DNA of 64,000 nucleotides from Alphaproteobacteria bacterium (GCA_006226415.1 SBGZ01000054.1:1554-65553), one strand, 5' to 3'. Shown: positions 3,717-40,672, counted from the stretch's first letter. A program made the numbers and translations. Notes: generated from the letters alone by a model not told the origin.

Positions 3717-4439
3717 CTACTTGCTCTTAATGGAAGAGCGGATGGCGGGAATATTTGAAATGATGACCTGATTACCTCGCGACTGCAGACCCAACTTGCG
3801 CAGCTTGGCCAGAGACCTCGAAAGCGTTTCTGGCTGCATGCCAAGTCGGCCCGCCAGAAGTGATTTTTCGATGGGCAAATAGATCGTTGCCTCTTTTGCG
3901 CCCTTGGGGCATTGGCTCAATAGAAAATTGGCCAACCTCTCCGTGGAGGACTGGACGGACAATTGCTCAATCTGTCTGACCAGGCTGCGCATGTGCCGTG
4001 ACATGGACGCGACAATGGTCAGGGCATACTCGGAGTTTTCCTTGATGGCTCGAAAAACCGAAGACGCAGGAATAATGAGTAGACGGCAGGAGGTCACGGT
4101 GATGGCGTTGACCGGGAACCCTCCCTTTGAAAACATGGCGGCTTCAGCGAAGGTTTCTCCCTTGGCGAAGACAGAGATGATGCTTTCCTGTCCCTCAATT
4201 GACTGGCGCGTAAGTTTAACCCAGCCTTCCAGGATCAGATAGAAATGATCCGCTGGCTCCCCCCGTTCAAATAAGGTTGATCGGCGATCGACCGACTTGA
4301 TATGGCCATCGCAAATGAGAGAAACAACAGCCTCGTCGTCCAATTCTTCAAAAAGCGTCGAAGCTTTGACGAGCTGAAAATCATCTTCCCGCAACCCGCC
4401 TGTACGTTTTAACGGATCAATTCTGGAAAGCTCTATCAT
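3717..4439 (-). CDS. Crp/Fnr-family transcription regulator, Dnr/NnrR-like (no N-terminal Cys cluster)
   Basis: 240 aa with a cNMP-binding-like beta-roll (FERGEPADHFYLILEGWVKL). C-terminal HTH carries the E--SR recognition motif (PETLSRSLAKLRKLG). It lacks the FNR Cys cluster. Sits inside the nirS-linked gene string. Confidence 0.85.
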   Translation of the reverse strand: MIELSRIDPLKRTGGLREDDFQLVKASTLFEELDDEAVVSLICDGHIKSVDRRSTLFERGEPADHFYLILEGWVKLTRQSIEGQESIISVFAKGETFAEAAMFSKGGFPVNAITVTSCRLLIIPASSVFRAIKENSEYALTIVASMSRHMRSLVRQIEQLSVQSSTERLANFLLSQCPKGAKEATIYLPIEKSLLAGRLGMQPETLSRSLAKLRKLGLQSRGNQVIISNIPAIRSSIKSK

Positions 4440-4537: not shown

Positions 4538-4948
4538 CTAATTTGCCTCGGTTCTAAACCGGTGAATTTCCGCATCAAAGGTTTTGAAATGATTGGAAAA
4601 CCATAAGGCAAGCCGCTCTTCAAGGCGTTGTGGCAAGGTGCCGCATTCTTCTTCGGGCACCTCATCCATCATGTCCAACAAGGTGTCAAGAAGCGCTTCG
4701 TGATCGGCCTTGTGATCAGCAAAACCAGGGTAATTGGACTGGACCATTTCCTGCTCTTCAAGCGCAAAATGGGCGGAGGTCTGGGCGTGTATTTCCCCCA
4801 AATGCTCTCGCACCGCTTCTTCGCGCTGGGGAGAGGGGGCGTCCGTCGCCATGGCCGTCAGAGCCCGGTTGATGAGGTCAATCAGCTCGCGGTGCTCATG
4901 GTCAATGGCCTCAATGCCAATTCTATATTCGTCTTTCCATTCTAGCAT
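4538..4948 (-). CDS. Bacteriohemerythrin-like protein
   Basis: 136 aa. MLEWKDEYRIGIEAIDHEHRELIDLIN, HFALEEQEM and HKADHEALL give the H-HxxxE-H-HxxxxD iron-ligand pattern of hemerythrins. Confidence 0.8.
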   Translation of the reverse strand: MLEWKDEYRIGIEAIDHEHRELIDLINRALTAMATDAPSPQREEAVREHLGEIHAQTSAHFALEEQEMVQSNYPGFADHKADHEALLDTLLDMMDEVPEEECGTLPQRLEERLALWFSNHFKTFDAEIHRFRTEAN

Positions 4949-4974: not shown

Positions 4975-5463
4975 CTAACGGATCGAGAGGCCGTATTGGT
5001 CAGTGAAGTCGATGACAAGGTGTTGACGAGACGTAAGGTCCACATGAACGGTTTCGCTCAGGTCAAATCCCTCCGCGCGTCTGCTGTGCCGAAAATTGAC
5101 TGTCAATTTATGCGTCCCAATGGGCACCGGAAAAGACTCATAAAGGACCGAGGGACCATCATCTCGAAAGCCCGAAGGGGGAACCTCTTTGTCGAAGAGA
5201 ACCTGGTCGCCGTCGAAAAGCTGCACATAGAGAGGGGCCCGCGCCCGTTCACAAATTTCCTTGCGCTTCATGTTCTGCGGCAGCTTGGCGATTTCTTCCT
5301 GAGTGAGTTGTCGGCAGGCCTCCATGCGATCACCATAAAGGGTAAACGTCAGGCGAATCATGGCCTGATCCTCCGGCATGCGCGGATAAATCGGAAACTG
5401 TGACAGGACCCCGAAGAGTCCGGCCAGGACCACGTAGACCAGGGTGGCTCGGATAGGGTTCAT
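4975..5463 (-). CDS. Membrane-anchored hypothetical protein
   Basis: 162-aa ORF with one N-terminal TM (LVYVVLAGLFGVLSQF). ATGA start/stop overlap with the upstream gene at 5460-5463. I recognise no motif. Confidence 0.5.
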   Translation of the reverse strand: MNPIRATLVYVVLAGLFGVLSQFPIYPRMPEDQAMIRLTFTLYGDRMEACRQLTQEEIAKLPQNMKRKEICERARAPLYVQLFDGDQVLFDKEVPPSGFRDDGPSVLYESFPVPIGTHKLTVNFRHSRRAEGFDLSETVHVDLTSRQHLVIDFTDQYGLSIR

Positions 5464-6983
5464 TCCGTGACCGCCTCCTCGTCGGGCTGTTTGCTCATCT
5501 CTGTTGTCAGGGCAATCCCCGGATCACCGCTCGAACCGGCATTGACGATGCGCCATTTCTCATCATTAACCCGGCCTCTCAGGCGCGGGTCGCGCTGACG
5601 GGCAAAACGCTCTCTTGTCCATTGAAGCCCGGTTCTGTTGAAACACTCTCCGTCGCCGCAAGCCGCAAGGACAACTTCGTCCGCCAATCCCTGTGCCAGA
5701 GTGTAATCAAGAAAAGCCGGCGAGAACATCGCCACGCAAGGCACTTCCAGTTCCACAATCGCCGGGTCGTCTTCGGTATTGGTCTTACTGGCGTGAGAAC
5801 AGCGCACCACGAGCCGTTTGGGGGTGTCACCGCTGCCCGTGCAAACCGAAGTGAGCCGGTCGCGCAGCTCAAGCAATGTGTACCCTTCAAGTTCAATGCC
5901 GGGCACAAGCCGCTCGCCGCGCCGGTAGGGCGATCCGGTCGGGCAGGAGCCCGCACAAATACCGCAGCCAACGCAGAGGTTGGGATTAACGGCGGCCTGC
6001 TGCCGATAGGGCTTGCCATCTGTCCGTGGCACCATCGAGATCGCCGAGTAGGGACAGTCTTTCAGGCACCATTCGCAGCCATTGCAATTGTCGAGATGGA
6101 CGGTGGCAATCTGCCGCTCCGGCTTCGTCCATAAGGCCGGCAGACCCAAAAGCGCGATGGTAAAACCGGCAGCCATGAACCAGACGACCCCCGCTGGCAG
6201 ATAGTCAAGCAGAGGGTAAAGGGCCAGATAATACCAATCAAGGTGCAGGTCCGCAGGGACCTTGGAAAGATCCGCCGCCGCGTGACTGGTGGCCGGGCTG
6301 ATCAGGGAAAGAGCCGTCAGCATCCCAAGAAAGCCGAACGCGGCCATGCGCGGCAGGTTGACTTTGGGTTTGGTAATTCTCTGCACATGGATCCACATGA
6401 GCAAAAGTAGAAACAGGGGCACGAAAATATGGATGAAAATCATCAGACTGAAGAAGCGGTCATCCACCCGATCCGGCGACACAAAATTACGCGCGATGGG
6501 CTCTGAGAAGATGGGCAGCCAGTCGAGCCACTCTGCGGATTTGATGGCGATATATTGGGCAAGTTCGTCCCATACAAGCCAGTAGCCGGTAATGCCCGCC
6601 GCATAGAGAAACAGGATCAGAGGAACCCCTGTCATCCAGCTAAAGGCCCGCGGCCCCGTCAGCCGGCCGTAGGCGAGCTCTCGAAAGAGGTGCAGAAAGA
6701 GGAAGAAGACCATGGCATCGGAGGCGTAGCGATGGAAACTGCGCAACAAGCCGCCCAAGTACCACTGGTCATGGGTGAGATATTCCATCGACTCGTAAAC
6801 ACCGGTGATGCTGGTATCAAAGGCGATGTAGAGATAGATCCCAGAGGCCGCGACGATCCAGTAACAGAAATATCCATAGGCGCCGAGCTGGCACAAGGGA
6901 TTGAGATCAGGACCGAAAGCCTTGTCCAAAAAGCTTTCAAGCCGTCCAAAGCCGCGTTTTGCTATGTTCATCTTGTCGCTCAA
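5460..6983 (-). CDS. Fusion protein: di-heme cytochrome b (bc1/b6-type N-terminal domain) + 2x[4Fe-4S] ferredoxin + MvhD/FlpD-like domain
   Basis: 507 aa. Two H-x13-H pairs lie in TM helices (RSFHRYASDAMVFFLFLHLFR and IHIFVPLFLLLLMWIHVQR). Two CxxCxxCxxxCP motifs follow (CNGCEWCLKDCP, CVGCGICAGSCP). The C-terminal block VPCVAMFSPAFLDYTLAQGLADEVVLAACGDGECFNRTG resembles the methyl-viologen-reducing hydrogenase delta subunit. Confidence 0.75.
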   Translation of the reverse strand: MSDKMNIAKRGFGRLESFLDKAFGPDLNPLCQLGAYGYFCYWIVAASGIYLYIAFDTSITGVYESMEYLTHDQWYLGGLLRSFHRYASDAMVFFLFLHLFRELAYGRLTGPRAFSWMTGVPLILFLYAAGITGYWLVWDELAQYIAIKSAEWLDWLPIFSEPIARNFVSPDRVDDRFFSLMIFIHIFVPLFLLLLMWIHVQRITKPKVNLPRMAAFGFLGMLTALSLISPATSHAAADLSKVPADLHLDWYYLALYPLLDYLPAGVVWFMAAGFTIALLGLPALWTKPERQIATVHLDNCNGCEWCLKDCPYSAISMVPRTDGKPYRQQAAVNPNLCVGCGICAGSCPTGSPYRRGERLVPGIELEGYTLLELRDRLTSVCTGSGDTPKRLVVRCSHASKTNTEDDPAIVELEVPCVAMFSPAFLDYTLAQGLADEVVLAACGDGECFNRTGLQWTRERFARQRDPRLRGRVNDEKWRIVNAGSSGDPGIALTTEMSKQPDEEAVTE

Positions 6984-7828
6984 GCGTCCTGTTTCAAGTT
7001 TCTAAATTCACGGATGAGAAAGATCGCAACAAGAGAAAGGCACAAAAATCCGATGATGATCGTCAGGATAAAGGAATAATCGAACTGATAGCGACCGGTA
7101 TTCGGGTTGTAGATTGTGCAGAACAGCTGGACCTGATTGAGGATGCCGTTAAGGCTTGAGAAATTGGCTGCCGCGCCGAAGACCAGACGTTTCAGGGGCT
7201 CAACGAAGTTAGGCGTGGGCAAGGTCTGGCCATAAATCTGGTAGTAGACCTGACCGGAGCGGTCAAGCAGGGTGACCTGCGCCAGATGATCAAACCCGTA
7301 AGGGGATTTTTCGTACAGAAACCCAAGATCCCGCGAGAGGCTCGCGATCGTTGCCTCGTCGGCACTTAAAAAGAGCCAATTGTCTCTGGAAACACGGTGG
7401 ATGCCTTTGTAAGCGTTCATTTGCCGCGGCGTGTCGACCTGCGTATCAAAGCCGATGGTTAGAATGACGAGATTTTCTTCGCCAATCGTCCGGTCTGAGA
7501 TTTTGACAACAGACTTCAGGCTCTCCACGATCATCGGACAGGTGTGGGAACAGGAAGTGTAGATGAGGTTGATGGCCACGGGTGTACCGCGAAAATCGCT
7601 CAAGGAAACAAGATGGCCATCGCTATCAGTAAACTGATAATCACCAACCTCCCTGCCGATGGCGCCCTGCGAGATATCCAAGGCTGAATCGCGGTCAAAG
7701 GCAAGACCGGCTCGAGCGGTATGGGCACCCTCGTGATCTTGCGCATTGGCGGGTGCATCCACAAGCACGGCGCAGAGCATCAACGCACAAAGGCCTCTGA
7801 GGGTGGCTTTAAAAGACAATCCAGGCAT
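6980..7828 (-). CDS. SCO1/SenC-family copper chaperone (thioredoxin fold) with C-terminal TM
   Basis: 282 aa with a signal peptide. CxxxC motif CSHTCP plus a downstream His (FDHLAQVTLLD). 4-nt overlap with the downstream gene. Confidence 0.8.
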   Translation of the reverse strand: MPGLSFKATLRGLCALMLCAVLVDAPANAQDHEGAHTARAGLAFDRDSALDISQGAIGREVGDYQFTDSDGHLVSLSDFRGTPVAINLIYTSCSHTCPMIVESLKSVVKISDRTIGEENLVILTIGFDTQVDTPRQMNAYKGIHRVSRDNWLFLSADEATIASLSRDLGFLYEKSPYGFDHLAQVTLLDRSGQVYYQIYGQTLPTPNFVEPLKRLVFGAAANFSSLNGILNQVQLFCTIYNPNTGRYQFDYSFILTIIIGFLCLSLVAIFLIREFRNLKQDA

Positions 7829-8672
7829 CCAGAAAGACTCCGGCGAACAATGCCGCTAATTGTATGAGAGACGCGAAAAAATTGCGCATGGCTGTGGCCG
7901 GCCCCGGATTGCGAACGTGCAAGAGACTGTGCCAGAGAAAATAGGCGCCCCCGCCCGCGGCAAAGACAAGATAGATCGGACCAAGACCGATAAAGCCCGG
8001 CACAAGCGAGAGGCCAACGAGAAGGGCCGTGTGGGCCAGAATAACCCAGGCACTCTTCTGCGCCCCGATGGTCATGGGCAGCATCGGAATATTCGCGCGC
8101 TCATAGTCCGCCTTGAGCGCACTGGCCAGGCTCCAAAAGTGCGGCGGCGTCCAAAGAAACAGAACGATCGCCAACACAAAAGGAACGGGGGCTTCAGGAT
8201 TGATGGCGGCAGCGCCGGCGAGCACCGCAAAAGAGCCCGACAATCCCCCGACAACGATGTTGAGAGGGGTGCGGGGTTTCAGCCAGACCGTATAGACAAT
8301 GCAGTAAAAGAAAGCGCCAAGAAACAAATAGGCCGCGACCCAATGATTAAACACAAAGCTCGAAATCACGACCGCAGCTGCGAGCAACGCACAAATTGAT
8401 CCCATCCAATAGGCATTCGCCGTAAAGGCACCGGTCACAAAGGGTCGGTTGCTGGTGCGTTTCATCAAGGCATCAGTGTCACGCTCGACATACTGATTGT
8501 AAGCCCCCGCGGCGGCTGACGAAGCAAAGACACAAAGTGCCAGCACGACGATTTCGCTTGCCGTCAGACCGATGCCAGGGGTGGCGATCATGCCCATCAT
8601 CGCCGTGAGGGTGATGAAAGCGCTGATACGCACTTTAAATACGGACGCCAGCATTTTTCCCATACTACTCAT
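7809..8672 (-). CDS. ctaB: Protoheme IX farnesyltransferase (heme O synthase)
   Basis: UbiA-family polytopic protein with motif NQYVERDTDALMKRTSNRP. Start moved to ATG at 8672 (MSSMGKMLAS...) because the longer ORF would overlap the end of subunit I. Confidence 0.85.
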   Translation of the reverse strand: MSSMGKMLASVFKVRISAFITLTAMMGMIATPGIGLTASEIVVLALCVFASSAAAGAYNQYVERDTDALMKRTSNRPFVTGAFTANAYWMGSICALLAAAVVISSFVFNHWVAAYLFLGAFFYCIVYTVWLKPRTPLNIVVGGLSGSFAVLAGAAAINPEAPVPFVLAIVLFLWTPPHFWSLASALKADYERANIPMLPMTIGAQKSAWVILAHTALLVGLSLVPGFIGLGPIYLVFAAGGGAYFLWHSLLHVRNPGPATAMRNFFASLIQLAALFAGVFLDAWIVF

Positions 8673-8717
8673 GACCACTGGCCACCTTCTGACGACAAAA
8701 GCGAAAACCCTCAAGGG

Positions 8718-8740
8718 GGGAGGTTCGCCTGAAACCTCCC
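8718..8740 (-). other. Intercistronic hairpin directly after the subunit I stop codon
   Basis: gggaggtt (8718-8725) and aacctccc (8733-8740) are perfect complements with a 7-nt loop. No clean U-tract follows, so this is more likely an mRNA processing or stability element than a terminator. Confidence 0.4.
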
Positions 8741-10440
8741 TACGACATCGGCCAAACCGTCGCCAGATATTTCCAGTTGATGAAGTAGTAAAGGACAAAG
8801 GCGATAAAGAAGACCGAGATCAACACAACTGTGCCCGGCAACTGAAGCTCGGTTTCACTGCCGTAGCTGGACACAGCTGCCACGCCTTCCGGAGTGGCTT
8901 GTACTTCGGACGTTTCCTTCAATGACTTACCAAAGAAGACAGTGCCGACGGCGACAACGATGAACATAACACCGCCCGCTGCCGCCATAATGGCTGCAAG
9001 CCCGTTCAGACCCAGCATAGCCAGAGCCATCGGCGGATATTCAAACGACAGCGTCGCGTCCGCGAAGGTGATATCCCAGTGCCGCCGGGCGACCCCAAGC
9101 GTCCCCGCGCCCATCATAAAGAGCGAGATACCTGCCACGCCCAGGCCGAAGACGTAGGGCTGCCAGCGCGCCATTTTGGGGAACATCAGCTCTTTCTGGA
9201 AGATCAGCTCCAACACCGGATAGGTAATCGCCATGAAGGCGAGTGTGGTGCCCGCAACGACGGTTCCGTGGAAGTGCCCGGGAACGTAAAGGGTGTTGTG
9301 GGTGATGATGTTGAGCTGCTCCGTGCCCATCATGACACCGGAGATACCGCCCAGGAAGCCGAACAGAACCAGCGAGATGAACATGCCCGCAAAAGCCGGG
9401 TTGTCCCAAGGCGCCTTGCGCAGCCATTCGAAGATCCCATTGGTATAGCCTTTGCGCCGCTGCGCGGCTTCAATGGCGCCGGGAACCGTCATGCCGTGGA
9501 TCATCGATCCCAGAACCGCCAGATACATGGCGTAGGACGTATTGAAGATCTTCCACTCTGAACTCAGACCCGGTTCAACCAGCAAGTGGTGAGCACAGGC
9601 CAGCTGCAGGAAGAGAATATACATCAGGAAAGCCAGACGGCTGACCTTTTCCGACAGCGGCTTGGCGCCAAGCACCATGGCCGCAATGGCATACCAGACG
9701 GCAACCTGCGCCGAAACGTTGATCTGCTGTGATGAGTGCCCCATGCCCCACCAGATCAATTTGTAGATCAACGGATCAATGTGTTGAATGATCCCCAGGG
9801 ACCAAAGCCATGTGGGCACAAGAATAATCGCCCCGGAGACGATTGTGAAAACAGCGATGATGGCGGCCGTCACGGCGGCAAATGTCACAAGCGGCACCGA
9901 GCCCTCATAGGTTTTTTCTTCCTTGGCGATGACCAGCGTTGCAAAGAACAATATGCAGCCGATCAGAGCCCCGACCGCAAAGAGGATTAACCCCAGATAA
10001 AAATGTGGGGCCGCTTGCATGGGCACATAAGACGTGAACATCACGCTGGAATTGCCTTGCAATACGGCGATGTTGGCAATAACGGCGCCGACAATCATCA
10101 GCCAAAACCCAACCCATCCCAGCTTTGGCATGGCCAAGCGGGAGTTCAGCAGCACCGCTGAGCAGAAATAGAGCAGCGCCATTTCGAAAAAGAGGATCCA
10201 GAACAAAAGCACATCCGCGCCATGCGCCGTCAGCGCCAGATAAAATAATTCATCTGACAGCAAGTGGACCGCTGGCCAGCGTGTGAGAGCAACCAGCAGA
10301 CCAAAAAGACCACCGATGGCCAGAAAGACAATGGCCACAACGGCATTGGCTTTGATGAGTTTTTCAGCTGCCAGATCGACCTTAAGGCCAGTTTTGGGGC
10401 AAGTTCGGAATTGGGTTTGGGCGTTCATCGATATCTCCAC
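8740..10440 (-). CDS. Heme-copper oxidoreductase subunit I, ba3/B-family-like, lacking the cross-linked Tyr (candidate NO reductase)
   Basis: 566 aa, colinear with remembered Thermus ba3 CbaA blocks: LTAHG, WWGMGH, ACAHH, APWDNPAF, VPGHFHG. Six canonical His are retained (H73, H235, H284, H285, H389, H391). Thermus GHPIVY reads GHSSQQ here. Confidence 0.9.
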   Translation of the reverse strand: MEISMNAQTQFRTCPKTGLKVDLAAEKLIKANAVVAIVFLAIGGLFGLLVALTRWPAVHLLSDELFYLALTAHGADVLLFWILFFEMALLYFCSAVLLNSRLAMPKLGWVGFWLMIVGAVIANIAVLQGNSSVMFTSYVPMQAAPHFYLGLILFAVGALIGCILFFATLVIAKEEKTYEGSVPLVTFAAVTAAIIAVFTIVSGAIILVPTWLWSLGIIQHIDPLIYKLIWWGMGHSSQQINVSAQVAVWYAIAAMVLGAKPLSEKVSRLAFLMYILFLQLACAHHLLVEPGLSSEWKIFNTSYAMYLAVLGSMIHGMTVPGAIEAAQRRKGYTNGIFEWLRKAPWDNPAFAGMFISLVLFGFLGGISGVMMGTEQLNIITHNTLYVPGHFHGTVVAGTTLAFMAITYPVLELIFQKELMFPKMARWQPYVFGLGVAGISLFMMGAGTLGVARRHWDITFADATLSFEYPPMALAMLGLNGLAAIMAAAGGVMFIVVAVGTVFFGKSLKETSEVQATPEGVAAVSSYGSETELQLPGTVVLISVFFIAFVLYYFINWKYLATVWPMS

Positions 10441-10443
10441 AAC

Positions 10444-11013
10444 TTAGTCAGTGACGTAAATTCGCCCGAGCATGTTGTGATGCCCGATGCCGCAAAATTC
10501 ATTACAGATAACCGAATACTGTCCGGCTTTGTCCGGGGTAATCGTCATCACCAATTCATAACCAGGGTGAACCTGGATGTTGATATTGCTGGGTTGAAGC
10601 GAAAACCCATGCTGCCAATCCTGTGAGGAAAGATGCAGCCGATAGGTCTTGTCCTTTTCAAGCTCAAGGATGGGATACCACTCCCAAAGCCGGGCGATCA
10701 TATAGATGTCGCTGCCAGCAGGTGGATGAACAACCGGTATACCGGTGTCGCCTTCCTCTCGAACCTGATAGGTTGTCGTAAAATTTTCAACCCTTTCAGC
10801 ATAGACCTCAGGGTCGATGCGATAGGATTCGTTGGAAAGATTCTGTTCGCCCGCGATATGCCAATAGATCATGGCGAAGAACATGATCAGACCCCAGACA
10901 AAAGCAACCAGGATCCAAATCAGCTCCTGTTTGCCGATACGCTCATTCCACCAAAGTGGATTTGTAGGACTGTGAATAGCCATGCGCGGCCTCCCATCGT
11001 TTTGGGTGCTCAA
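10444..11013 (-). CDS. Heme-copper oxidoreductase subunit II with CuA centre
   Basis: 189 aa with one TM plus a cupredoxin domain. CuA ligands DWQHGF ... CNEFCGIGHHNM are present. Only 3 nt separate it from subunit I. Confidence 0.85.
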   Translation of the reverse strand: MSTQNDGRPRMAIHSPTNPLWWNERIGKQELIWILVAFVWGLIMFFAMIYWHIAGEQNLSNESYRIDPEVYAERVENFTTTYQVREEGDTGIPVVHPPAGSDIYMIARLWEWYPILELEKDKTYRLHLSSQDWQHGFSLQPSNINIQVHPGYELVMTITPDKAGQYSVICNEFCGIGHHNMLGRIYVTD

Positions 11014-11079: not shown

Positions 11080-11093
11080 TTGACCAAAGTCAA
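11080..11093. promoter_or_regulatory. FNR/Dnr-type box TTGACCAAAGTCAA
   Basis: Perfect palindrome TTGAC-N4-GTCAA, 67 nt upstream of the subunit II start codon. Confidence 0.6.
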
Positions 11094-11110: not shown

Positions 11111-11305
11111 CTAGCCTGCGACAATTTGTATAACTTTGAAAGCCAATACGGCGCTCACAAGAAGAATGCCAAAAAAGATAAGCGAGCGATCAGCAAAGGG
11201 TTTGCCGCGTCTTCTTTCCATAACGCCAAGCAACCCGTTGGCAAAGAAATAAAGCGCAACCGCGACCACTGTAAAAATCAGAAATTGCAAGGGTGCGTGC
11301 TCCAT
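11111..11305 (-). CDS. Small two-TM membrane protein (hypothetical)
   Basis: ORF 11111..11350; the likely start is MEHAPLQ at 11305. Two hydrophobic helices. No recognisable family. Confidence 0.4.
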   Translation of the reverse strand: MEHAPLQFLIFTVVAVALYFFANGLLGVMERRRGKPFADRSLIFFGILLVSAVLAFKVIQIVAG

Positions 11306-11405: not shown

Positions 11406-11419
11406 TTGATTATGGTCAA
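11406..11419. promoter_or_regulatory. FNR/Dnr-type box TTGATTATGGTCAA
   Basis: TTGAT-N4-GTCAA sits 96 nt upstream of the nirS GTG, in the divergent intergenic region. Confidence 0.6.
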
Positions 11420-11502: not shown

Positions 11503-13401
<1,899 letters not shown>

Positions 13402-13418
13402 CAGACGTGTCAAGACCT

Positions 13419-13449
13419 CCAATCCCCTCTCATTTCAGGAGGGGATTGG
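13419..13449 (+). other. 11-bp perfect hairpin between nirS and the porin gene, overlapping the porin SD
   Basis: ccaatcccctc (13419-13429) pairs with gaggggattgg (13439-13449) across a 9-nt loop. No U-tract follows. Confidence 0.5.
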
Positions 13450-13450
13450 G

Positions 13451-14686
13451 ATGGGGGTTAAAATGAAAACGAAAAGAAATAGAAAACACTTTTTATGCGC
13501 CCTGTTGGCTTCCGCTACATTGGTGTCTTTGGCGCCCTCTTCATATGCGGGAGAGGAAAACAACCTCGCCGACAATATTATTTTGGACCTGAGGCTCCGT
13601 GGTGAGTGGGTCGAACAAGATGGTAAGCCTGACAATGCCGAAGCATTGACCCTGCGCACTCGGTTTGGCTTCAAGACCGATGAGATCAGCGGTTTTCAGT
13701 TTTTGGTAGAAGGCGAAAATGTCACCCATATCATGGATGACTTTGATGACACCATTAACGGCATGGGCAACTACCCGGTGGTGGCAGATCCCGAAACCAC
13801 CGAGCTTAATCGCCTTCAGGTAAGCTATACCGGCCTTGAGAAAACCAAAATCGTCGTCGGTCGTCAGCGCATTATTCTGGGGGATGCCCGTTACGTTGGT
13901 AATGTGGGGTTCCGTCAGAACGAGCAAACCTTTGACGCGGCCTTGCTGGCCTTCAGCCCGGATGATCATGTCTCCTTCACCTATGCCTATGTGGCCAAGG
14001 TCCGCCGCGTTTTCGGCGACGATAGCGCGGTCGGCGAATTTGACATGGACACCCATATTGTCGAGCTCGCCTGGAAGGGAACGCCCGGCACGCTGACCGG
14101 CTTTGCCTATCTGGCTGATGTCGACGATGCTGCCGCAGCCTCTAACGCGACCTATGGCGCGAATTGGAGTGGAGCTCTTCAAGACACAGGCGATTTGTCG
14201 GTGAAATATAAGTTCGAATATGCCCGGCAAACGGACTACGGCAACTCACTGGACGACTTTGAGCTTTCCATGATGCGTGGTGAGTTCATCATATCCAATG
14301 GAACCCTCTCCGGCGGATTGGGGGTTGAGGTGCTGGAAGGCAACGGTGCGCGCGGATTTGCAACACCGCTGGCAACCCTGCACAAATTCCAGGGCTGGTC
14401 AGATGTTTTCCTGACCACACCCTCCGATGGTATTCGCGATCTCTATCTGACCGCTGGCTGGAAAGCGCCCGGCGTTACAGCCATCAAAGGGTTTAATGTC
14501 GGCTTGGTCTATCACAACTATGAAGCTGACAGTGGCGGCGCCAATCTGGGTTCGGAGTGGGGCGCTGTTGCTACCGCTAAGCTGACCGACAAGACGTCGC
14601 TTCAACTCAAATATGCCGACTATGACGGTGCGGGCGGTTATGCAAGTCGCACCAAGACCTGGCTCGCGCTCTCCTGGGTCTATTAG
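13451..14686 (+). CDS. Outer-membrane beta-barrel porin (alginate-export/AlgE-like pattern)
   Basis: 411 aa with a signal peptide ending SSYA. Alternating amphipathic strands. Blocks LRLRGEWVEQD and LTLRTRFGFK. Ends with an aromatic (...LSWVY). Confidence 0.55.
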   Translation: MGVKMKTKRNRKHFLCALLASATLVSLAPSSYAGEENNLADNIILDLRLRGEWVEQDGKPDNAEALTLRTRFGFKTDEISGFQFLVEGENVTHIMDDFDDTINGMGNYPVVADPETTELNRLQVSYTGLEKTKIVVGRQRIILGDARYVGNVGFRQNEQTFDAALLAFSPDDHVSFTYAYVAKVRRVFGDDSAVGEFDMDTHIVELAWKGTPGTLTGFAYLADVDDAAAASNATYGANWSGALQDTGDLSVKYKFEYARQTDYGNSLDDFELSMMRGEFIISNGTLSGGLGVEVLEGNGARGFATPLATLHKFQGWSDVFLTTPSDGIRDLYLTAGWKAPGVTAIKGFNVGLVYHNYEADSGGANLGSEWGAVATAKLTDKTSLQLKYADYDGAGGYASRTKTWLALSWVY

Positions 14687-37627: not shown

Positions 37628-40600
37628 ATGAAAGCCTCAATGGCGCGCCATCAAAAGAATAGGATCTGGGCGCTTGTTCCGATTAAGCCGTTTGAAGCGG
37701 CCAAAGGACGTTTGCGCGAGGCTTTGCCTGTCACCGAGCGCAGAGCGCTTGCTGAGGCCATGGCCCGCGATGTTTTGGCGGCCTTGCGCGGTGCTTCGAG
37801 GGTCGAAGGCATATTGCTTGTCTCGCGCGGCATCGAAGCCAAGTCGCTCGCTGAGAAATTCGGCGCTGAGCTCTGGGAAGAGGTCGAAGGAGCGGACCTG
37901 AACGGGGCCTTGCGCGAAGGGCTTGAGGTTCTCAAAACCAAAGGGGTTGATCGCGCGCTCATTCTGCCTGGAGATCTGCCTTTCATCACCGCGCAAGCGG
38001 TTGACGCGCTGATCGACAAGGCACCCAAGGCCGCTCTGGTTGCTTCTCACGATGGCGACGGCACCAATGCCTTGCTGCTGGATTTGAATGCACCTTTTGT
38101 GCCTGAGTTTGGCCCCGGCAGCTTTTTTCGTCACCGGGCGGTGCTTGGCGAAGAGGCGGTGGCAGAAAGCAAAGCTCTGGCCTTCGATCTCGACACCGCC
38201 ACTGATCTTGAAGCCTCAATCGCCAGATTTTCTCGTCTGCCGGAGAAGGGGCGCACGCGCGCATTTATCGGCGATCATTTGCGCCTCAGTGAAGCGGCAG
38301 CTCATAAGCTGGCAGAGCGGGAAAGCCTGGACGCGCTCATGACCCGCGCGGCCGAGAAACGCGACCGCTCATTTGGGGATACGCTCACCTATTCGCGCAA
38401 GGTCTTCATTCCGCTCACCCAGCTCTGCCGGGATGTTTGCCACTATTGTACTTTCGCAAAAACCCCTCGATCTCTCGCCAACCCGTTTCTGACGGTAGAT
38501 GAGTGCATTGCAATTGCAAAAGAAGGCGCGGCCCTTGGCTGCGAAGAGGCGCTCTTCACCCTCGGAGAAAAACCGGAGCTACGATATCAGGCCGCCCGTG
38601 AGGCTCTGCAGGCCATGGGCTTTGCCTCTACAACGGATTATCTCGCCCATGTGGCCCGCCGTGTCTTCGAGGAGACCGGACTCTTGCCTCACGTTAATCC
38701 CGGCTGCATGGATGAAAGTGAAATTGAAAAGCTGCGTCAGGTCGCCCCTTCCATGGGGTTGATGCTCGAAAGTGCTTCGGACCGTTTGTGCGAAAAAGGC
38801 ATGCCGCACTATGGATCGCCCGACAAGGTGCCGGCCTTGCGCCTTGCCACCCTCGAAAGGGCGGGGGCGGCAAAGGTCCCCTTCACCAGCGGCATCCTGA
38901 TTGGCATTGGCGAGACAAGGGCTGAGCGCGTCGACGCCCTCTTGAAGCTGCGCGATCTTCATGAGGCCCATGGGCATCTGCAGGAAGTGATCGTGCAGAA
39001 CTTCAAACCCAAGCCCGACACGAAAATGGCAGGCGTGCCCGAGCCTGATCTGAAGGAGCTGCTCTGGTCCATCGCCATGGCGCGGCTCATATTGCCCGGG
39101 GATGTGTCTGTTCAGGCGCCGCCCAACCTGTCTCCCGGGGATCTCAAGCAGCTCGTTGCCGCCGGTATCAACGATTGGGGCGGCGTTTCACCGCTCACTC
39201 CCGATCACGTCAACCCGGAAGCCCCTTGGCCGCATCTGGACGATCTGGCGCGCCTCAGCGCCGAGGCGGGCAAAGCCCTTGCCGGACGCCTGACGGTCTA
39301 TCCGAAATATGTAAAGTCGAGCGTGGTTTGGACGGACCCGAACTTTCACAAAGCGCTTCTGCAAAAAAGCGATGGCGAGGGCCTGGCGCGCCATGAGGGG
39401 TGGACGCCGGGCGGAGAGGCGTTGCCCAGTCTCGAGCTGCCTGCGATCTCCACCACCCACCGACTGACAAGGAGTTTGGAGCGCCTGAGCTCAGGTGACG
39501 AGTTGAGTGAAGGTGAGGTGGCCGAGCTCTTTACGGCCAGAGGCAGCGCGCTCGCCGATGTCGTGAGCGCCGCTGACGCGCTCCGGCAGGCGCAGGTGGG
39601 CGACACTGTCACCTATGTGGTCAACCGCAATATCAATTACACCAACATCTGCAGCTTCGGCTGCACCTTCTGTGCCTTCTCCAAAGGCAAAACCAACGAG
39701 ACACTGCGCGGCACGCCTTATGATATTGGCCTGGCGGAAACCACCCGCCGCGCCGAGGAAGCCTGGGCGCGCGGGGCAACGGAGGTTTGTCTGCAGGGCG
39801 GCATCCATCCGGCCTATACCGGCACGACCTATCTGGAGATCTGCCGGGCGATCAAGTCGGCACTGCCGCAGATGCACATTCATGCTTTTTCGGCGCTTGA
39901 GGTTTCTCAAGGCGCTGAGACGTTAGGCCTTTCGGTCCCGGCCTTTTTGGAGCAGCTCAAGGATGCCGGGCTCGACACCATGCCCGGCACAGCAGCGGAA
40001 GTATTGGACGACCGGGTTCGCACACGCATCTGCCCTGACAAGCTCACCAGCGACAATTGGATGAGCGTGATTGGTGCCGCTCACGCCGCGGGCATCAACA
40101 CCACCGCGACCATCATGTTTGGCCACATCGATTCCTATGCCCATTGGGCGCGGCATCTCGTGCTTCTGAGAAATCTTCAGGAAGACAGTCTCGCTGAGGG
40201 AAGGGGGTGCTTCACCGAATTTGTGCCGCTGCCCTTTGTTCATATGGAAGCCCCCATGTATCTAAAGTCCGGCGCGCGCAAAGGCCCGACCTTCCGTGAG
40301 ACGGTGCTTATGCATGGCATCGCAAGGCTGGTACTTGGCAAGACCTTCACCAACATTCAGGCAAGCTGGACCAAACTGGGCCGCGGCGGCGTGGCGCAAG
40401 TCCTTCGCGCCGGCGTCAATGATCTGGGGGGCACCTTGATGAATGAATCCATTTCCCGCGCCGCCGGGTCCACCCACGGCCAGGAGATGCCGCCGGAGGC
40501 CATGGAGGAACTCATCCGCGCCTGTGATCGCAGCCCGCGCCAACGCACAACCCTTTATGGCCCCGTGTCTGACACGCGCAAAAAGGCAGGCCGAAATGCC

Positions 40601-40672
40601 CCGCCGCTGCAGGAGGTCCAGCTGGAGCGGGTGGACCGTAAACCCCTGGCGGGTATCGCCGCCGCCGAATAA
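37628..40672 (+). CDS. fbiC: CofC(FbiD)-CofG-CofH triple fusion: phospho-lactate/PEP guanylyltransferase domain + FO synthase (FbiC)
   Basis: 1014-aa uninterrupted ORF. N-terminal roughly 215 aa: IWALVPIKPFEAAKGRLREALPVTERRALAEAMARDVLAAL (CofC pattern). Two radical-SAM sites follow: CRDVCHYCTF (CofG half) and CSFGCTFCAF (CofH half). Confidence 0.85.
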   Translation: MKASMARHQKNRIWALVPIKPFEAAKGRLREALPVTERRALAEAMARDVLAALRGASRVEGILLVSRGIEAKSLAEKFGAELWEEVEGADLNGALREGLEVLKTKGVDRALILPGDLPFITAQAVDALIDKAPKAALVASHDGDGTNALLLDLNAPFVPEFGPGSFFRHRAVLGEEAVAESKALAFDLDTATDLEASIARFSRLPEKGRTRAFIGDHLRLSEAAAHKLAERESLDALMTRAAEKRDRSFGDTLTYSRKVFIPLTQLCRDVCHYCTFAKTPRSLANPFLTVDECIAIAKEGAALGCEEALFTLGEKPELRYQAAREALQAMGFASTTDYLAHVARRVFEETGLLPHVNPGCMDESEIEKLRQVAPSMGLMLESASDRLCEKGMPHYGSPDKVPALRLATLERAGAAKVPFTSGILIGIGETRAERVDALLKLRDLHEAHGHLQEVIVQNFKPKPDTKMAGVPEPDLKELLWSIAMARLILPGDVSVQAPPNLSPGDLKQLVAAGINDWGGVSPLTPDHVNPEAPWPHLDDLARLSAEAGKALAGRLTVYPKYVKSSVVWTDPNFHKALLQKSDGEGLARHEGWTPGGEALPSLELPAISTTHRLTRSLERLSSGDELSEGEVAELFTARGSALADVVSAADALRQAQVGDTVTYVVNRNINYTNICSFGCTFCAFSKGKTNETLRGTPYDIGLAETTRRAEEAWARGATEVCLQGGIHPAYTGTTYLEICRAIKSALPQMHIHAFSALEVSQGAETLGLSVPAFLEQLKDAGLDTMPGTAAEVLDDRVRTRICPDKLTSDNWMSVIGAAHAAGINTTATIMFGHIDSYAHWARHLVLLRNLQEDSLAEGRGCFTEFVPLPFVHMEAPMYLKSGARKGPTFRETVLMHGIARLVLGKTFTNIQASWTKLGRGGVAQVLRAGVNDLGGTLMNESISRAAGSTHGQEMPPEAMEELIRACDRSPRQRTTLYGPVSDTRKKAGRNAPPLQEVQLERVDRKPLAGIAAAE

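What the first reader, a model, noticed from the sequence alone, without database searches (positions are those of the whole stretch)
5460..6983. Unusual three-module fusion (di-heme cytochrome b + 2x[4Fe-4S] + MvhD-like) translationally coupled inside the oxidase/NOR gene string
Seen in the sequence:
- One uninterrupted 507-aa ORF.
- The N-terminal membrane domain has two H-x13-H pairs in the bc1/b6 cytochrome b arrangement (RSFH...LHLFR and IHIF...WIHVQR).
- A ferredoxin module carries CNGCEWCLKDCP and CVGCGICAGSCP.
- The C-terminal block resembles the methyl-viologen hydrogenase delta subunit / FlpD (…AACGDGECFNRTG) but lacks the N-terminal CNWC-type Cys pair.
- ATGA-type overlaps join it to SCO1 upstream and to a 162-aa membrane protein downstream.

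Established knowledge: MvhD-like domains normally accompany heterodisulfide reductase or hydrogenase electron-transfer modules, not terminal oxidases.

Inference: it could be a dedicated quinol-linked electron entry or exit module, or an assembly or redox-sensing factor for the adjacent HCO. I know of no characterised protein with this architecture.
Basis: partly seen in the sequence, partly recalled or inferred. Interest (0 to 1): 0.7.

Follow-up and report, generated by a model that had tools for sequence, protein, structure and literature searches.

The report
Conserved cytochrome b–FeS partner of eNOR
The ORF is a real, uninterrupted membrane redox protein (a cytochrome b without its usual Rieske partner, plus two iron-sulfur modules) that sits in nearly every eNOR-type nitric oxide reductase gene cluster sampled here across at least six bacterial phyla, has never been characterised, and most likely carries electrons across the membrane to build, maintain or feed that enzyme.

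Summary
Window 5460-6983, minus strand, encodes one uninterrupted 507-aa ORF (503 aa from the ATG). It has a di-heme bc-type cytochrome b, two CxxCxxCxxxCP motifs and an MvhD/FlpD-like domain.

The adjacent 'Tyr-less HCO' is an eNOR: Gln replaces the cross-linked Tyr (GHSSQQ).

The fusion is neither rare nor unlinked:
- It has relatives in at least 460 species genomes and 480 clusters at 50% identity.
- All 66 loci with enough upstream DNA carry eNOR II, eNOR I and SCO1 upstream. In 72 of 74 the 162-aa gene follows.
- Distant members from Bacteroidota, Nitrospirota, Gemmatimonadota and Aquificota show the same linkage. One Nitrospinae locus does not.

About half of the family fuses the 162-aa protein on as a fourth module (TM helix plus periplasmic beta-sandwich). 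Other relatives fuse SCO1, or replace FeS–MvhD with NAD(P)H-flavin modules.

The four Cys aligned with MvhD's [2Fe-2S] ligands are invariant. Only MvhD's extra, non-ligand Cys is missing.

Best reading: a transmembrane electron wire from a cytoplasmic Fe-S/flavin partner to the periplasmic face, serving eNOR biogenesis or maintenance. Function is inferred, not shown. Only one 2026 preprint mentions such genes.

The parts
5460..6983 (-). The fusion protein: 507 aa from the TTG, or 503 aa from the ATG at 6971. Stop codon at 5460-5462.
   Evidence: ORF list and translation. 100% identical NCBI protein P0001 of 503 aa. AlphaFold2 model with pLDDT 79.6 and pTM 0.81.
6117..6971 (-). Membrane domain, aa 1-285: bc-type di-heme cytochrome b with six TM helices (A-F). 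Heme ligands H80/H94 and H181/H195. PEWY-equivalent motif LDWYY.
   Evidence: Pfam Cytochrome_B 73.5 bits. Alignment to cytochrome b6 with all four His matched. Invariant residues. Foldseek matches to bc1 cytochrome b, probability 1.00, about 285 columns. Helices from the model.
5916..6116 (-). Ferredoxin module, aa 286-352, with two CxxCxxCxxxCP motifs (2x[4Fe-4S]). Predicted cytoplasmic.
   Evidence: Pfam Fer4 and Fer4_7. All eight Cys invariant. Topology from six TM helices, the positive-inside rule and homology to b6.
5538..5915 (-). MvhD/FlpD-like domain, aa 353-478, with four conserved Cys (C391, C412, C438, C443). Predicted to bind a [2Fe-2S] cluster; cytoplasmic.
   Evidence: Pfam FlpD 26.7 bits. 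The family profile matches solved MvhD chains over the whole domain at E about 5e-17. The four Cys are invariant in A1 and A3, and invariant (1) or at least 90% conserved (3) in A2.
4975..5463 (-). 162-aa partner: an N-terminal TM helix plus a soluble, predicted periplasmic beta-sandwich. ATGA-coupled to the fusion. It is the fourth module of the fusion in about half of the family.
   Evidence: ATGA overlap. Present downstream in 72/74 loci. Fused in 74 of 150 representatives. Long-form model shows a TM helix followed by beta strands. No Pfam or PDB match.
6980..7828 (-). SCO1/SenC copper chaperone (CSHTC motif) with an N-terminal anchor and an extra C-terminal TM helix.
   Evidence: Pfam SCO1-SenC 57 bits. 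Adjacent to the fusion in 66/66 loci. An SCO1-cytochrome b fusion exists, P0181. TM prediction.
7809..8798 (-). Heme O synthase (CtaB/CyoE).
   Evidence: TIGR01473 scores 234 bits against a cut-off of 210. Present in 46/66 loci.
8740..10440 (-). eNOR subunit I: a B-family-derived HCO with Gln in place of the cross-linked Tyr (GHSSQQ).
   Evidence: Pfam COX1 227 bits. Alignment to T. thermophilus ba3 places GHPIVY opposite GHSSQQ. The same motif occurs in all 70 related loci scored. eNOR signature as given in PMC8756737 Table A4.
10444..11013 (-). eNOR subunit II: one TM helix plus a cupredoxin domain with the CuA motif CNEFCGIGHHNM.
   Evidence: Translation. Pfam COX2 and TIGR02866 matches.
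4538..4948 (-). Hemerythrin-domain protein directly downstream of the 162-aa gene.
   Evidence: Pfam Hemerythrin 43.7 bits. A homologous gene cluster sits in the same position in 27 related loci.
3717..4439 (-). Crp/Fnr-family regulator (Dnr/NnrR-like) at the end of the gene string.
   Evidence: Pfam cNMP_binding and HTH_Crp_2. Found near the cluster in many loci.
11080..11093 (.). FNR/Dnr-type box TTGACCAAAGTCAA, 67 nt upstream of the eNOR II start.
   Evidence: Pattern TTGAYNNNNRTCAA gives 4 matches in the window against 0.25 expected. Two of them lie in this 500-bp divergent region.
11406..11419 (.). FNR/Dnr-type box TTGATTATGGTCAA in the eNOR-nirS divergent region.
11515..13401 (+). Cytochrome cd1 nitrite reductase NirS, divergently transcribed. 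It is the source of the NO substrate.
   Evidence: Pfam Cytochrom_D1 487 bits.

Best explanation
The ORF is the conserved accessory membrane redox protein of the eNOR (heme-copper-type nitric oxide reductase) gene cluster.

Anatomy. This is shown by sequence, profiles and the predicted structure.
- A Rieske-less bc-type cytochrome b with six TM helices and two b hemes stacked across the membrane.
- Its C-terminus, on the cytoplasmic side, carries a 2x[4Fe-4S] ferredoxin and an MvhD-like domain predicted to bind a [2Fe-2S] cluster.
- It is made together with SCO1 upstream and with a TM-anchored, predicted periplasmic beta-sandwich protein downstream (orf162).

Mechanism (inferred). The chain MvhD-like cluster -> 2x[4Fe-4S] -> heme bH -> heme bL forms a transmembrane electron wire.
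- It takes electrons from a cytoplasmic Fe-S/flavin/NAD(P)H-level donor and delivers them to the periplasmic face.
- There, together with SCO1 and orf162, it keeps eNOR's cofactors in an assembly-competent or active state. Candidates are reduction of Cu(II) or of the SCO1 thiols for CuA insertion, and electron supply for heme A formation at low O2.
- In role this resembles NosR for N2O reductase, or NOX/FRE/MsrQ-type transmembrane reductases.
- The protein is not a stoichiometric catalytic subunit.
For: Linkage:
- SCO1, eNOR I and eNOR II lie upstream in 66/66 loci, and orf162 lies downstream in 72/74.
- The same cluster occurs in Bacteroidota, Nitrospirota, Gemmatimonadota, Aquificota and bacterium HR21.
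- Every adjacent HCO scored carries the eNOR Gln motif.

Wire anatomy:
- Four invariant His, eight invariant Cys in the ferredoxin module and four conserved Cys in the MvhD-like domain.
- Six TM helices with the Fe-S domains on the n-side.
- The MvhD-like domain matches solved MvhD chains at E about 5e-17.
- The only MvhD Cys that is missing is Cys16, described as an additional, non-ligand Cys (PMC13580544).

Rosetta-stone fusions:
- orf162 is fused after an extra TM helix in 74 of 150 representatives.
- SCO1 is fused N-terminally in P0181.

Direction of electron flow:
- Paralogues replace FeS-MvhD with flavodoxin-FAD-NAD or [2Fe-2S]-FAD-NAD modules. These also sit in eNOR clusters.
- A NuoF-like NADH/FMN gene lies between two fusion paralogues in Nitrospirota loci.
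- Electrons from NAD(P)H running outward through two b hemes is the thermodynamically sensible direction (inference).

Not a core subunit:
- The gene sits after ctaB and sco1, among the biogenesis genes.
- Purified R. marinus eNOR shows two bands on SDS-PAGE, identified as subunits I and II. It contains only a-type heme and is active with TMPD/ascorbate.

Expression:
- The homologous Ferrigenium proteins were detected in the proteome of denitrifying cultures (preprint).
Against: - There is no experimental datum on any member of the family.
- SCO1 and CuA also occur in sNOR, bNOR and ba3 clusters, which are not reported to carry this protein. CuA assembly alone therefore does not explain the specificity for eNOR.
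- The p-side loops are the most conserved part of the protein. They include an invariant Asp-Trp in the PEWY position and the W-D of the cd loop. This fits a retained quinol site as well as it fits a docking site.
- Some relatives fuse the cytochrome b to an HCO-like domain, which could mean direct electron supply to an enzyme.
- The cytoplasmic donor for the MvhD-like domain is not identified in this window.
- One distant member (Nitrospinae, L081) has no eNOR within the contig.
- The periplasmic location of orf162 and the nature of the MvhD-like cluster are predictions.
Confidence: 0.42

Rival explanations
1. Respiratory electron-input module. The cytochrome b oxidises quinol at a retained Qo-like pocket, or receives cytoplasmic reductant. 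It passes electrons to eNOR during turnover, as a dedicated donor that bypasses bc1 and cytochrome c. In this reading the protein is effectively an additional, loosely bound eNOR subunit.
For: - bc1-type fold with cd and ef loops strongly conserved and an invariant Asp-Trp in the PEWY position.
- cytochrome b-HCO-like fusions P0238 and P0183.
- Near-obligate co-occurrence with eNOR.
- NapGH and NosGH set a precedent for quinol dehydrogenases dedicated to N-oxide reductases (established knowledge).
Against: - eNOR subunit II keeps a complete CuA site for periplasmic donors. Cytochrome c and cupredoxin genes occur nearby in related loci.
- Purified eNOR is a two-subunit enzyme with a-type heme only, and is active with TMPD/ascorbate.
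- No Rieske-type first acceptor is encoded in the cluster.
- Cytoplasmic Fe-S and MvhD domains have no obvious role in a quinol-to-periplasm route.
- The fused HCO-like domain belongs to a different family that lacks the CuB His pair; it is not eNOR.
Confidence: 0.25
2. Rieske-less, Q-cycle-like bifurcating module. Quinol oxidation at the p-side splits the two electrons. One goes to the very high-potential eNOR/NO couple. The other goes through bL and bH to the cytoplasmic Fe-S/MvhD chain, or to the NAD(P)-flavin modules of the paralogues, and reduces ferredoxin or NAD(P)+. This is the supercomplex idea raised for Ferrigenium.
For: - The preprint proposes coupling NO reduction to NAD+ reduction.
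- MvhD and the HdrA-type ferredoxin domain (NCBIfam HdrA2 hit) belong to electron-bifurcating complexes.
- NAD(P)H-binding paralogues and a NuoF-like neighbour occur in eNOR clusters.
- The Qo-like motifs are retained.
Against: - Inward electron flow from quinol to NAD(P)+ is uphill in redox terms and runs against the membrane potential unless tightly coupled. No first-electron acceptor equivalent to Rieske is evident.
- The window organism is an alphaproteobacterial MAG. It may well be a heterotroph with no evident need for reverse electron flow, but its metabolism was not examined.
- There is no biochemical precedent for quinone-based bifurcation onto an HCO.
Confidence: 0.1
3. Electron donor for heme A synthesis at low O2. 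eNOR uses a-type heme in both sites but is made under microoxic denitrifying conditions. The cytochrome b-FeS protein would feed electrons to heme A synthase, with the hemerythrin supplying O2 and the NAD(P)H-[2Fe-2S] paralogues playing the part of the mitochondrial Arh1/Yah1 pair. This is a specific sub-case of the best explanation.
For: - eNOR contains heme As in both sites, and many eNOR operons carry ctaA.
- ctaB is in the cluster. ctaA lies within 10 kb in 14 of 80 loci and in L090.
- A hemerythrin gene follows orf162 in the window and in 27 loci.
- The idea would explain specificity for eNOR rather than for all CuA enzymes (inference).
- The ferredoxin requirement of Cox15 is established knowledge, recalled from memory and not checked here.
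Against: - Purely circumstantial.
- ctaA is absent from the window and from most loci.
- There is no evidence for contact with CtaA.
- SCO1 fusions point to copper rather than heme.
Confidence: 0.1
4. Redox or NO sensor. The hemes and clusters would sense NO, O2 or quinone-pool state, and signal to the Dnr-type regulator.
For: A Crp/Fnr regulator, a hemerythrin and FNR/Dnr-type boxes belong to the same locus.
Against: - No output or signalling domain is present.
- The architecture is a complete electron-transfer chain.
- The fusions are to SCO1, NAD(P)H-flavin modules and HCO-like domains, not to signalling domains.
Confidence: 0.04

Closest known systems
Cytochrome b of bc1 / b6f complexes (Pfam PF00033)
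   Same: - Four His ligands in helices B and D with bc1-type H-x13-H spacing.
- The same fold over helices A-F (Foldseek probability 1.00).
- Conserved cd loop (GYxLxWD) and an ef-loop motif in the PEWY position.
   Different: - Only six TM helices; helices G and H are absent.
- The motif is LDW[YF]Y rather than PEWY.
- No Rieske or cytochrome c1/f partner is encoded in the cluster.
- The C-terminus continues into cytoplasmic Fe-S domains.
- The genomic context is eNOR, not a quinol:cytochrome c oxidoreductase.
MvhD / FlxD (Pfam FlpD PF02662) of Mvh-Hdr and Flx-Hdr complexes
   Same: - Whole-domain similarity to solved MvhD chains (E about 5e-17).
- The four Cys that align with the [2Fe-2S] ligands are conserved.
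- The role is probably that of an electron adaptor between modules. The same NAD(H)-linked theme is suggested by the NuoF-like neighbour and the NAD(P)H paralogues. That FlxD links an NADH module to Hdr is recalled from memory and was not checked here.
   Different: - Lacks MvhD Cys16, the second Cys of CNWC.
- Covalently tethered to a membrane cytochrome b.
- No HdrA, HdrBC or hydrogenase genes nearby.
- Found in denitrifying bacteria, including aerobic lineages.
NosR / NirI and NapH / NosH (membrane Fe-S proteins accessory to periplasmic N-oxide reductases)
   Same: - A membrane protein with two cytoplasmic [4Fe-4S] clusters, encoded inside a denitrification enzyme cluster.
- By analogy with NosR it would be needed in vivo without being a catalytic subunit.
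- NosR/NirI-like genes also occur near the fusion in 18 related loci.
   Different: - No sequence or fold relationship in the membrane part.
- It has b hemes instead of a periplasmic FMN domain or CX3CP motifs.
- It carries an MvhD-like domain.
NarI, HdrE-HdrD, DsrMK, QmoC (membrane cytochrome b coupled to cytoplasmic Fe-S proteins)
   Same: The logic is shared: a di-heme b spans the membrane and connects a p-side site with cytoplasmic Fe-S clusters. The Qmo complex also contains an MvhD-like domain (recalled from memory, not checked here).
   Different: - The cytochrome b fold is different (NarI/HdrE type versus bc1 type).
- The partners and pathways are different.
[quoted passage not shown]
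NOX / FRE / STEAP and MsrQ-type transmembrane reductases
   Same: The paralogues with an NAD(P)H-flavin module fused to the same cytochrome b reproduce the scheme: cytoplasmic NAD(P)H -> flavin -> two stacked b hemes -> extracytoplasmic acceptor.
   Different: - The heme-binding fold is unrelated.
- The window protein has Fe-S and MvhD modules instead of a flavin domain.
- The acceptor is unknown.
Cytochrome b/[Fe-S] genes noted in the Ferrigenium straubiae eNOR operon (bioRxiv 10.64898/2026.01.22.701106)
   Same: - Same operon type: eNOR II, eNOR I, heme o synthase, sco1 and a 'scaffold protein', plus cytochrome b/[Fe-S] proteins.
- These are probably members of the same family as the window protein, and of the NAD(P)H paralogue seen in L084, L090 and L091.
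   Different: - The preprint calls the genes 'rather unusual' and specific markers of Ferrigenium. Here they prove to be near-universal eNOR companions.
- The preprint text found here describes only cytochrome b, [Fe-S], FAD- and NADH-binding domains. It mentions neither an MvhD-like domain nor a fusion with the 'scaffold' protein.
- The window has a single paralogue and no NAD(P)H module.

Membership tests
Cytochrome b of bc1/b6f type | Two His pairs in TM helices B and D that ligate hemes bL and bH | tested here: met
   H80/H94 and H181/H195, each H-x13-H. They align with b6 His86/100/187/202 and are invariant in 42 close and 37 distant relatives.
Cytochrome b of bc1/b6f type | Profile match above the curated threshold, and the same fold | tested here: met
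   PF00033 scores 73.5 bits against 27.2. Foldseek matches bc1 cytochrome b with probability 1.00, about 285 columns and TM (target) 0.57.
Cytochrome b of bc1/b6f type | PEWY motif of the Qo site | tested here: not met
   The motif is LDWYY, with family consensus LDW[YF]Y. Asp and Trp are invariant; Pro and Glu are absent. Natural PDWY variants are known (from memory), so a quinol site is not excluded.
Cytochrome b of bc1/b6f type | Eight TM helices (or b6 plus subunit IV), with Rieske and cytochrome c1/f partners encoded alongside | tested here: not met
   Six TM helices in the model. No Rieske or c1/f gene in the cluster of the window or of the related loci.
2x[4Fe-4S] bacterial-type ferredoxin | Two CxxCxxCxxxCP motifs | tested here: met
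   CNGCEWCLKDCP and CVGCGICAGSCP. Pfam Fer4 and Fer4_7 pass their cut-offs. All eight Cys are invariant.
MvhD / FlpD (PF02662) | Sequence similarity across the whole domain | tested here: met
   PF02662 scores 26.7 bits against 22.3 but covers only part of the profile in the window protein. The relative P0148 matches the full profile at 57 bits. The family profile matches solved MvhD chains 8rvu_F and 5odc_D over residues 4-127 at E about 5e-17.
MvhD / FlpD (PF02662) | Four Cys that ligate the [2Fe-2S] cluster | tested here: met
   C391, C412, C438 and C443 are invariant in A1 and A3. In the distant alignment A2 one is invariant and three are at least 90% conserved. They align with MvhD Cys in CCNWC, MCSG, GGCH and GDCH. 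That these are the ligands is inferred from PMC13580544, which calls Cys16 an additional Cys. Cluster binding itself cannot be tested here.
MvhD / FlpD (PF02662) | Additional conserved Cys16 (second Cys of CNWC) facing HdrA | tested here: not met
   The position holds Ala or Gly: VRCSHAS in the window, G-C-D-H-G in the consensus.
MvhD / FlpD (PF02662) | Partnership with HdrA and a [NiFe]-hydrogenase, or with Flx | tested here: not met
   No such genes were found in the window or in the 92 related loci surveyed.
eNOR gene cluster (context of the finding) | HCO subunit I with Gln in place of the cross-linked Tyr | tested here: met
   GHSSQQ lies opposite ba3 GHPIVY. The criterion comes from PMC8756737 Table A4. 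The motif GH[SAG][SA]QQ is present in all 70 related loci scored and in the distant loci.
eNOR gene cluster (context of the finding) | CuA-containing subunit II | tested here: met
   CNEFCGIGHHNM, plus COX2/CoxB profile matches.
eNOR gene cluster (context of the finding) | NO reductase activity, heme As in both sites | not testable with these tools
   Shown only for the R. marinus enzyme (PMC11214002).
sNOR cluster norSY-senC-orf1 (considered and rejected) | Asn at the Tyr position of subunit I | tested here: not met
   The window has Gln. sNOR = N and eNOR = Q according to PMC8756737 Table A4.
NosR / NirI / NapH | Periplasmic FMN-binding domain and/or CX3CP motifs with a NosR-type membrane part | tested here: not met
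   No such Pfam or NCBIfam hit for the fusion. The resemblance is functional and contextual only.

The most novel reading that the evidence does not exclude
The protein could be the core of a Rieske-less, Q-cycle-like machine. In it, a bc-type cytochrome b splits the two electrons of quinol between the very high-potential eNOR/NO couple and a cytoplasmic low-potential Fe-S/MvhD chain that reduces ferredoxin or NAD(P)+. That would be quinone-based electron bifurcation attached to a heme-copper nitric oxide reductase, giving denitrifiers and nitrate-dependent Fe(II) oxidisers a new way to make low-potential reductant.
Probability: 0.1. Interest if true: 0.9.

Novelty: new variant of a known kind. 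Interest (0 to 1): 0.6.

Why it matters
eNOR was only recently shown to be a true NO reductase. It is among the commonest N2O-producing enzymes in environmental data (PMC11214002).

The 2024 paper's main text, as searched here, mentions only CtaA among accessory genes. This analysis shows that eNOR almost always travels with a second, unstudied redox system. That system comprises a Rieske-less bc-type cytochrome b wired to cytoplasmic Fe-S clusters, a periplasmic beta-sandwich protein of unknown fold family, and a doubly anchored SCO1.

What this protein does bears on three things:
- How eNOR is assembled and kept active at low O2.
- Whether eNOR can be expressed heterologously.
- Whether NO reduction is linked to cytoplasmic reductant, which would change the bioenergetics assumed for aerobic denitrifiers and Fe(II)-oxidising denitrifiers.

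The protein is also a practical genomic marker. In the loci surveyed here, finding it predicted an eNOR cluster nearby in all but one case.

Tried and rejected
1. sNOR cluster. My first idea was that this is the norSY-senC-orf1 (sNOR) cluster of ammonia oxidisers. I rejected it. Subunit I has Gln, not Asn, at the Tyr position. The Bacillus counterpart of orf1 is described as a six-TMH membrane protein of about 190 aa.

2. Heme ci/cn. A b6f-like covalent heme through the N-terminal Cys (LCQLG) is ruled out, because that Cys is not conserved.

3. Replacement of CtaA. The idea that the fusion replaces heme A synthase is weakened, because ctaA co-occurs within 10 kb in 14 of 80 loci and in L090.

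4. Quinol:NAD+ oxidoreductase running inward (the preprint's suggestion). I judged this thermodynamically implausible without bifurcation. It is kept only as a low-probability rival.

5. Whole-model Foldseek search. It returned only cytochrome b hits and so said nothing about the MvhD-like or beta-sandwich domains.

6. orf162 profile. Searches against PDB and Pfam found nothing.

7. R. marinus eNOR. A search seeded with a Bacteroidota eNOR I did not return the biochemically characterised enzyme among the 120 hits listed. Whether its operon carries the fusion remains unknown.

8. Supplements of PMC11214002 are not held.

Full report
**1. The observation**

The ORF at 5460..6983 lies on the minus strand; the plus-strand frame is broken by stops. 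It runs 507 codons from a TTG that overlaps the SCO1 stop (cTTGAg). An ATG 12 nt downstream gives the 503-aa protein that NCBI annotates identically in an alphaproteobacterial MAG (P0001). The stop overlaps the start of the next gene as ATGA.

Pfam places three modules above their gathering cut-offs:

| Module | Residues | Score |
|---|---|---|
| Cytochrome_B | 23-203 | 73.5 bits (cut-off 27.2) |
| Two Fer4 motifs | 299-350 | pass |
| FlpD | 407-465 | 26.7 bits (cut-off 22.3) |

The ORF is not a frameshift artefact, because hundreds of independent sequences share the architecture.

**2. The gene string**

On the minus strand the order is as follows:

- a small two-TM ORF
- an HCO subunit II with a full CuA motif (10444-11013)
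- HCO subunit I (8740-10440)
- heme O synthase (7809-8798)
- SCO1 (6980-7828)
- the fusion
- a 162-aa ORF (4975-5463)
- a hemerythrin-domain protein (4538-4948)
- a Crp/Fnr regulator (3717-4439)

nirS is transcribed divergently. The 500-bp divergent region holds two of the four TTGAY-N4-RTCAA boxes found in the 64-kb window, against 0.25 expected.

Aligned to T. thermophilus ba3, subunit I reads GHSSQQ where ba3 reads GHPIVY. Gln at the position of the cross-linked Tyr is the published eNOR signature; sNOR has Asn (PMC8756737 Table A4; PMC11214002). My initial idea, the sNOR cluster norSY-senC-orf1, is therefore rejected.

**3. How common the fusion is, and how tightly it is linked**

- A word-indexed search returned over 3,000 hits. 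The best 120 were all 470-560 aa, shared the same Pfam content and were about 50% identical.
- An exhaustive HMMER scan of 1.84 billion representatives found 480 clusters at E <= 1e-30.
- A scan of one genome per species found 460 genomes with a relative.

In the 80 best loci the synteny is essentially invariant:

| Test | Result |
|---|---|
| Loci with >= 4.5 kb upstream that carry adjacent SCO1, eNOR I and eNOR II | 66 of 66 |
| Same loci carrying ctaB | 46 of 66 |
| Loci with >= 800 bp downstream that carry the 162-aa gene | 72 of 74 |
| Subunit I sequences scored that carry GH[SAG][SA]QQ | 70 of 70 |

Distant family members were then looked up individually.

- An eNOR cluster is present at the locus in Bacteroidota (L082), Nitrospirota (L083, L086), Gemmatimonadota (L085), a Rhodocyclaceae contig (L084) and two metagenome contigs (L087, L090).
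- It is absent only from a Nitrospinae contig, L081.

Going the other way, three eNOR subunit I proteins were chosen without regard to the fusion. They come from a Hydrogenobacter-like locus (L088), a widespread Bacteroidota lineage (L089) and bacterium HR21 (L092). All three have the fusion and an orf162 homologue next to them.

The fusion is common and tightly linked.

**4. Anatomy of the protein**

*Cytochrome b module.*
- It aligns with cytochrome b6 with all four heme-ligand His matched.
- The spacing is bc1-like, H-x13-H twice.
- The four His are invariant in 42 close and 37 distant relatives.
- The AlphaFold2 model (pLDDT 79.6, pTM 0.81) has an N-terminal amphipathic helix and six TM helices.
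- Foldseek aligns about 285 residues to bc1 cytochrome b helices A-F with probability 1.00.

*Topology.* By homology the N-terminus is on the n-side. The D-E loop is K/R-rich, and the C-D and E-F loops are acidic. With six TM helices, the ferredoxin and MvhD-like domains are therefore cytoplasmic.

*Conserved surface.* The p-side loops hold most of the invariant residues, including W134-D135 in the cd loop and D245-W246 in the position of the PEWY motif. The N-terminal Cys that might have suggested a b6f-type covalent heme is not conserved.

*MvhD-like domain.*
- A profile of this domain matches solved MvhD chains over their whole length at E about 5e-17.
- Four Cys (C391, C412, C438, C443) are invariant in alignments A1 and A3. 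In the distant alignment A2 one is invariant and three are at least 90% conserved. They align with four MvhD Cys.
- The one MvhD Cys that is missing is the second of CNWC, Cys16. [quoted passage not shown]
- The domain is therefore most likely cluster-competent. What it lacks is the HdrA-facing feature.

**5. The unit is larger than three modules**

- Of the 150 best representatives, 74 have the architecture cyt b-FeS-FlpD-orf162 in one chain of about 690 aa, and 38 have the split form seen in the window.
- The long-form model (pLDDT 84.9) shows a seventh TM helix after the MvhD-like domain, followed by an all-beta domain. This places the orf162 domain in the periplasm.
- That domain has no Pfam or PDB relative and no conserved metal-ligand pattern. 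Its Cys pair is frequent but not invariant.
- SCO1 in the window has an extra C-terminal TM helix with a basic tail. One representative, P0181, fuses SCO1 to the N-terminus of the cytochrome b.

These Rosetta-stone fusions tie the fusion, orf162 and SCO1 into one functional unit on the periplasmic face.

**6. Informative paralogues**

The same cytochrome b occurs fused to other modules in place of FeS-MvhD:

- flavodoxin-FAD-NAD (P0163)
- [2Fe-2S]-FAD-NAD (P0165, P0348, P0349, P0354)

All three of the [2Fe-2S]-FAD-NAD paralogues that I looked up lie inside eNOR clusters, beside an FeS-MvhD paralogue and an orf162 gene (L084, L090, L091).

In two Nitrospirota loci a NuoF-like NADH/FMN gene is sandwiched, with overlapping ends, between two fusion paralogues (L083, L086).

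The cytoplasmic end of this cytochrome b family is thus repeatedly connected to NAD(P)H-level redox modules. Electrons running from NAD(P)H outward through two stacked b hemes are downhill in redox terms and run with the membrane potential. The inward direction, quinol to NAD+, is uphill on both counts unless it is coupled by bifurcation. This last step is inference.

Some relatives fuse the cytochrome b to an HCO-like domain (P0238, P0183). That domain belongs to a separate family, with the motif GGGH[VIA]LQF and no CuB His pair. The same family also occurs as a free gene in many eNOR loci.

**7. What it most likely does**

*Shown.* A complete, conserved cofactor-binding chain: an MvhD-like Cys4 site, two [4Fe-4S] motifs and two b hemes spanning the membrane. 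It is co-encoded and translationally coupled with SCO1 and a predicted periplasmic partner, inside a Dnr/FNR-boxed eNOR-nirS locus.

*Inferred.* It acts as a transmembrane electron wire, from a cytoplasmic donor to the periplasmic face, in the service of eNOR.

I favour a biogenesis or maintenance role for three reasons. Candidates are a reductant for SCO1/Cu, or for heme A formation at low O2; this is a NosR-like role.

- The gene sits after ctaB and sco1.
- SCO1 fusions exist.
- Purified R. marinus eNOR shows two bands on SDS-PAGE, contains only a-type heme, and turns over with TMPD/ascorbate. eNOR subunit II also keeps a CuA entry site.

The main rival is a dedicated respiratory electron-input module, quinol- or cytoplasm-linked. 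It is supported by the strongly conserved Qo-like p-side loops.

A more radical version is quinol bifurcation between eNOR and the low-potential cytoplasmic chain. The Ferrigenium preprint raises it as an 'NO reduction coupled to NAD+ reduction' supercomplex. I cannot exclude it.

A pure sensor role is unlikely, because the protein has no signalling output domain.

**8. Comparison with what is known**

- The modules are members of known families: bc-type cytochrome b, 2x[4Fe-4S] ferredoxin and MvhD/FlpD. The membership table gives the qualifications.
- The combination matches no characterised protein.
- In logic it resembles three kinds of system. NarI, HdrE and QmoC are b hemes coupled to cytoplasmic Fe-S proteins. 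NosR and NapH are Fe-S membrane proteins accessory to N-oxide reductases. NOX, FRE and MsrQ are NAD(P)H-fed transmembrane b-heme reductases. It is homologous to none of their membrane parts.
- Term searches of the main text of the 2024 PNAS paper that established eNOR, and of its 2021 preprint, found no mention of these genes.
- Only the 2026 Ferrigenium preprint notes 'rather unusual' cyt b/[Fe-S] genes, and it treats them as lineage markers. The survey here shows that they are a general feature of bacterial eNOR clusters.

**9. Verdict**

Novelty: a new variant of a known kind of system, namely membrane Fe-S/heme accessory modules of respiratory N-oxide reductases. It is represented by a large but uncharacterised family of which the window protein is an ordinary member.

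Interest is moderate to high. The family is widespread, tied to an environmentally important N2O-forming enzyme, and directly testable.

Noticed in passing
L083:2036-3460, L086:14092-15486, L084:11128-12447 (-), L088:10668-11936, L090:11463-12776 (-), L091:5515-6894; proteins P0238, P0183: A second, divergent HCO-subunit-I-like family of about 420-470 aa recurs in eNOR clusters outside the Alphaproteobacteria. It has the motif GGGH[VIA]LQF and lacks the CuB His-His pair. In some relatives it is fused to the same cytochrome b. It is absent from the window. Its function is unknown.
   Followed up: partly
L083:10108-11421 and L086:10102-11403: A NuoF-like gene (Complex1_51K, SLBB, NADH_4Fe-4S) lies between two paralogues of the fusion, with overlapping ends, in Nitrospirota eNOR clusters. 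It is a candidate cytoplasmic partner of the MvhD-like domain.
   Followed up: partly
L084:2986-4905, L090:9001-10914, L091:1761-3677; also P0163, P0165: Paralogues in which the same cytochrome b is fused to [2Fe-2S]-FAD-NAD or flavodoxin-FAD-NAD modules. All three that were looked up lie inside eNOR clusters, next to an FeS-MvhD paralogue and an orf162 gene. This is the arrangement noted in the Ferrigenium preprint.
   Followed up: partly
window 4538-4948 (-): A hemerythrin-domain protein lies directly downstream of the 162-aa gene. A homologous gene occupies the same position in 27 of the 80 related loci. It could sense or deliver O2 or NO.
   Followed up: partly
window 11080-11093 and 11406-11419: Two FNR/Dnr-type boxes (TTGAY-N4-RTCAA) lie in the 500-bp divergent eNOR-nirS region. 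There are four such boxes in the whole window, against 0.25 expected by chance.
   Followed up: yes
window 11111-11305 (-): A small ORF of about 64 aa with two hydrophobic segments lies upstream of eNOR subunit II. Small ORFs of 57-68 aa sit in the same position in L088, L089, L090 and L092. It may be a small eNOR subunit.
   Followed up: no
window 6980-7828 (-): The SCO1 of this cluster has a C-terminal extension of about 50 aa (CTIYNPNTGRYQFDYS, then a TM helix and a basic tail). The protein would therefore be anchored at both ends.
   Followed up: partly
L081:3290-5380: In a Nitrospinae MAG contig a four-module family member stands alone between mreC and an HhH-GPD gene, with no eNOR within the 13 kb held. 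This is the one clear exception to the linkage.
   Followed up: no
window 37628-40672 (+): A 1014-aa ORF combines a CofC-like guanylyltransferase domain with two radical-SAM/CofH-type regions. This looks like a fused set of F420 biosynthesis genes in an alphaproteobacterial MAG.
   Followed up: no
window 11515-14686 (+): nirS stands without the usual heme d1 biosynthesis genes in the window. It is followed by a 411-aa ORF (13451-14686) that has a signal-like N-terminus and no Pfam match; it may be a porin. In related loci, nirE/nirDLGH-type genes, NosR/NirI-like, ApbE and NnrS genes lie nearby.
   Followed up: no
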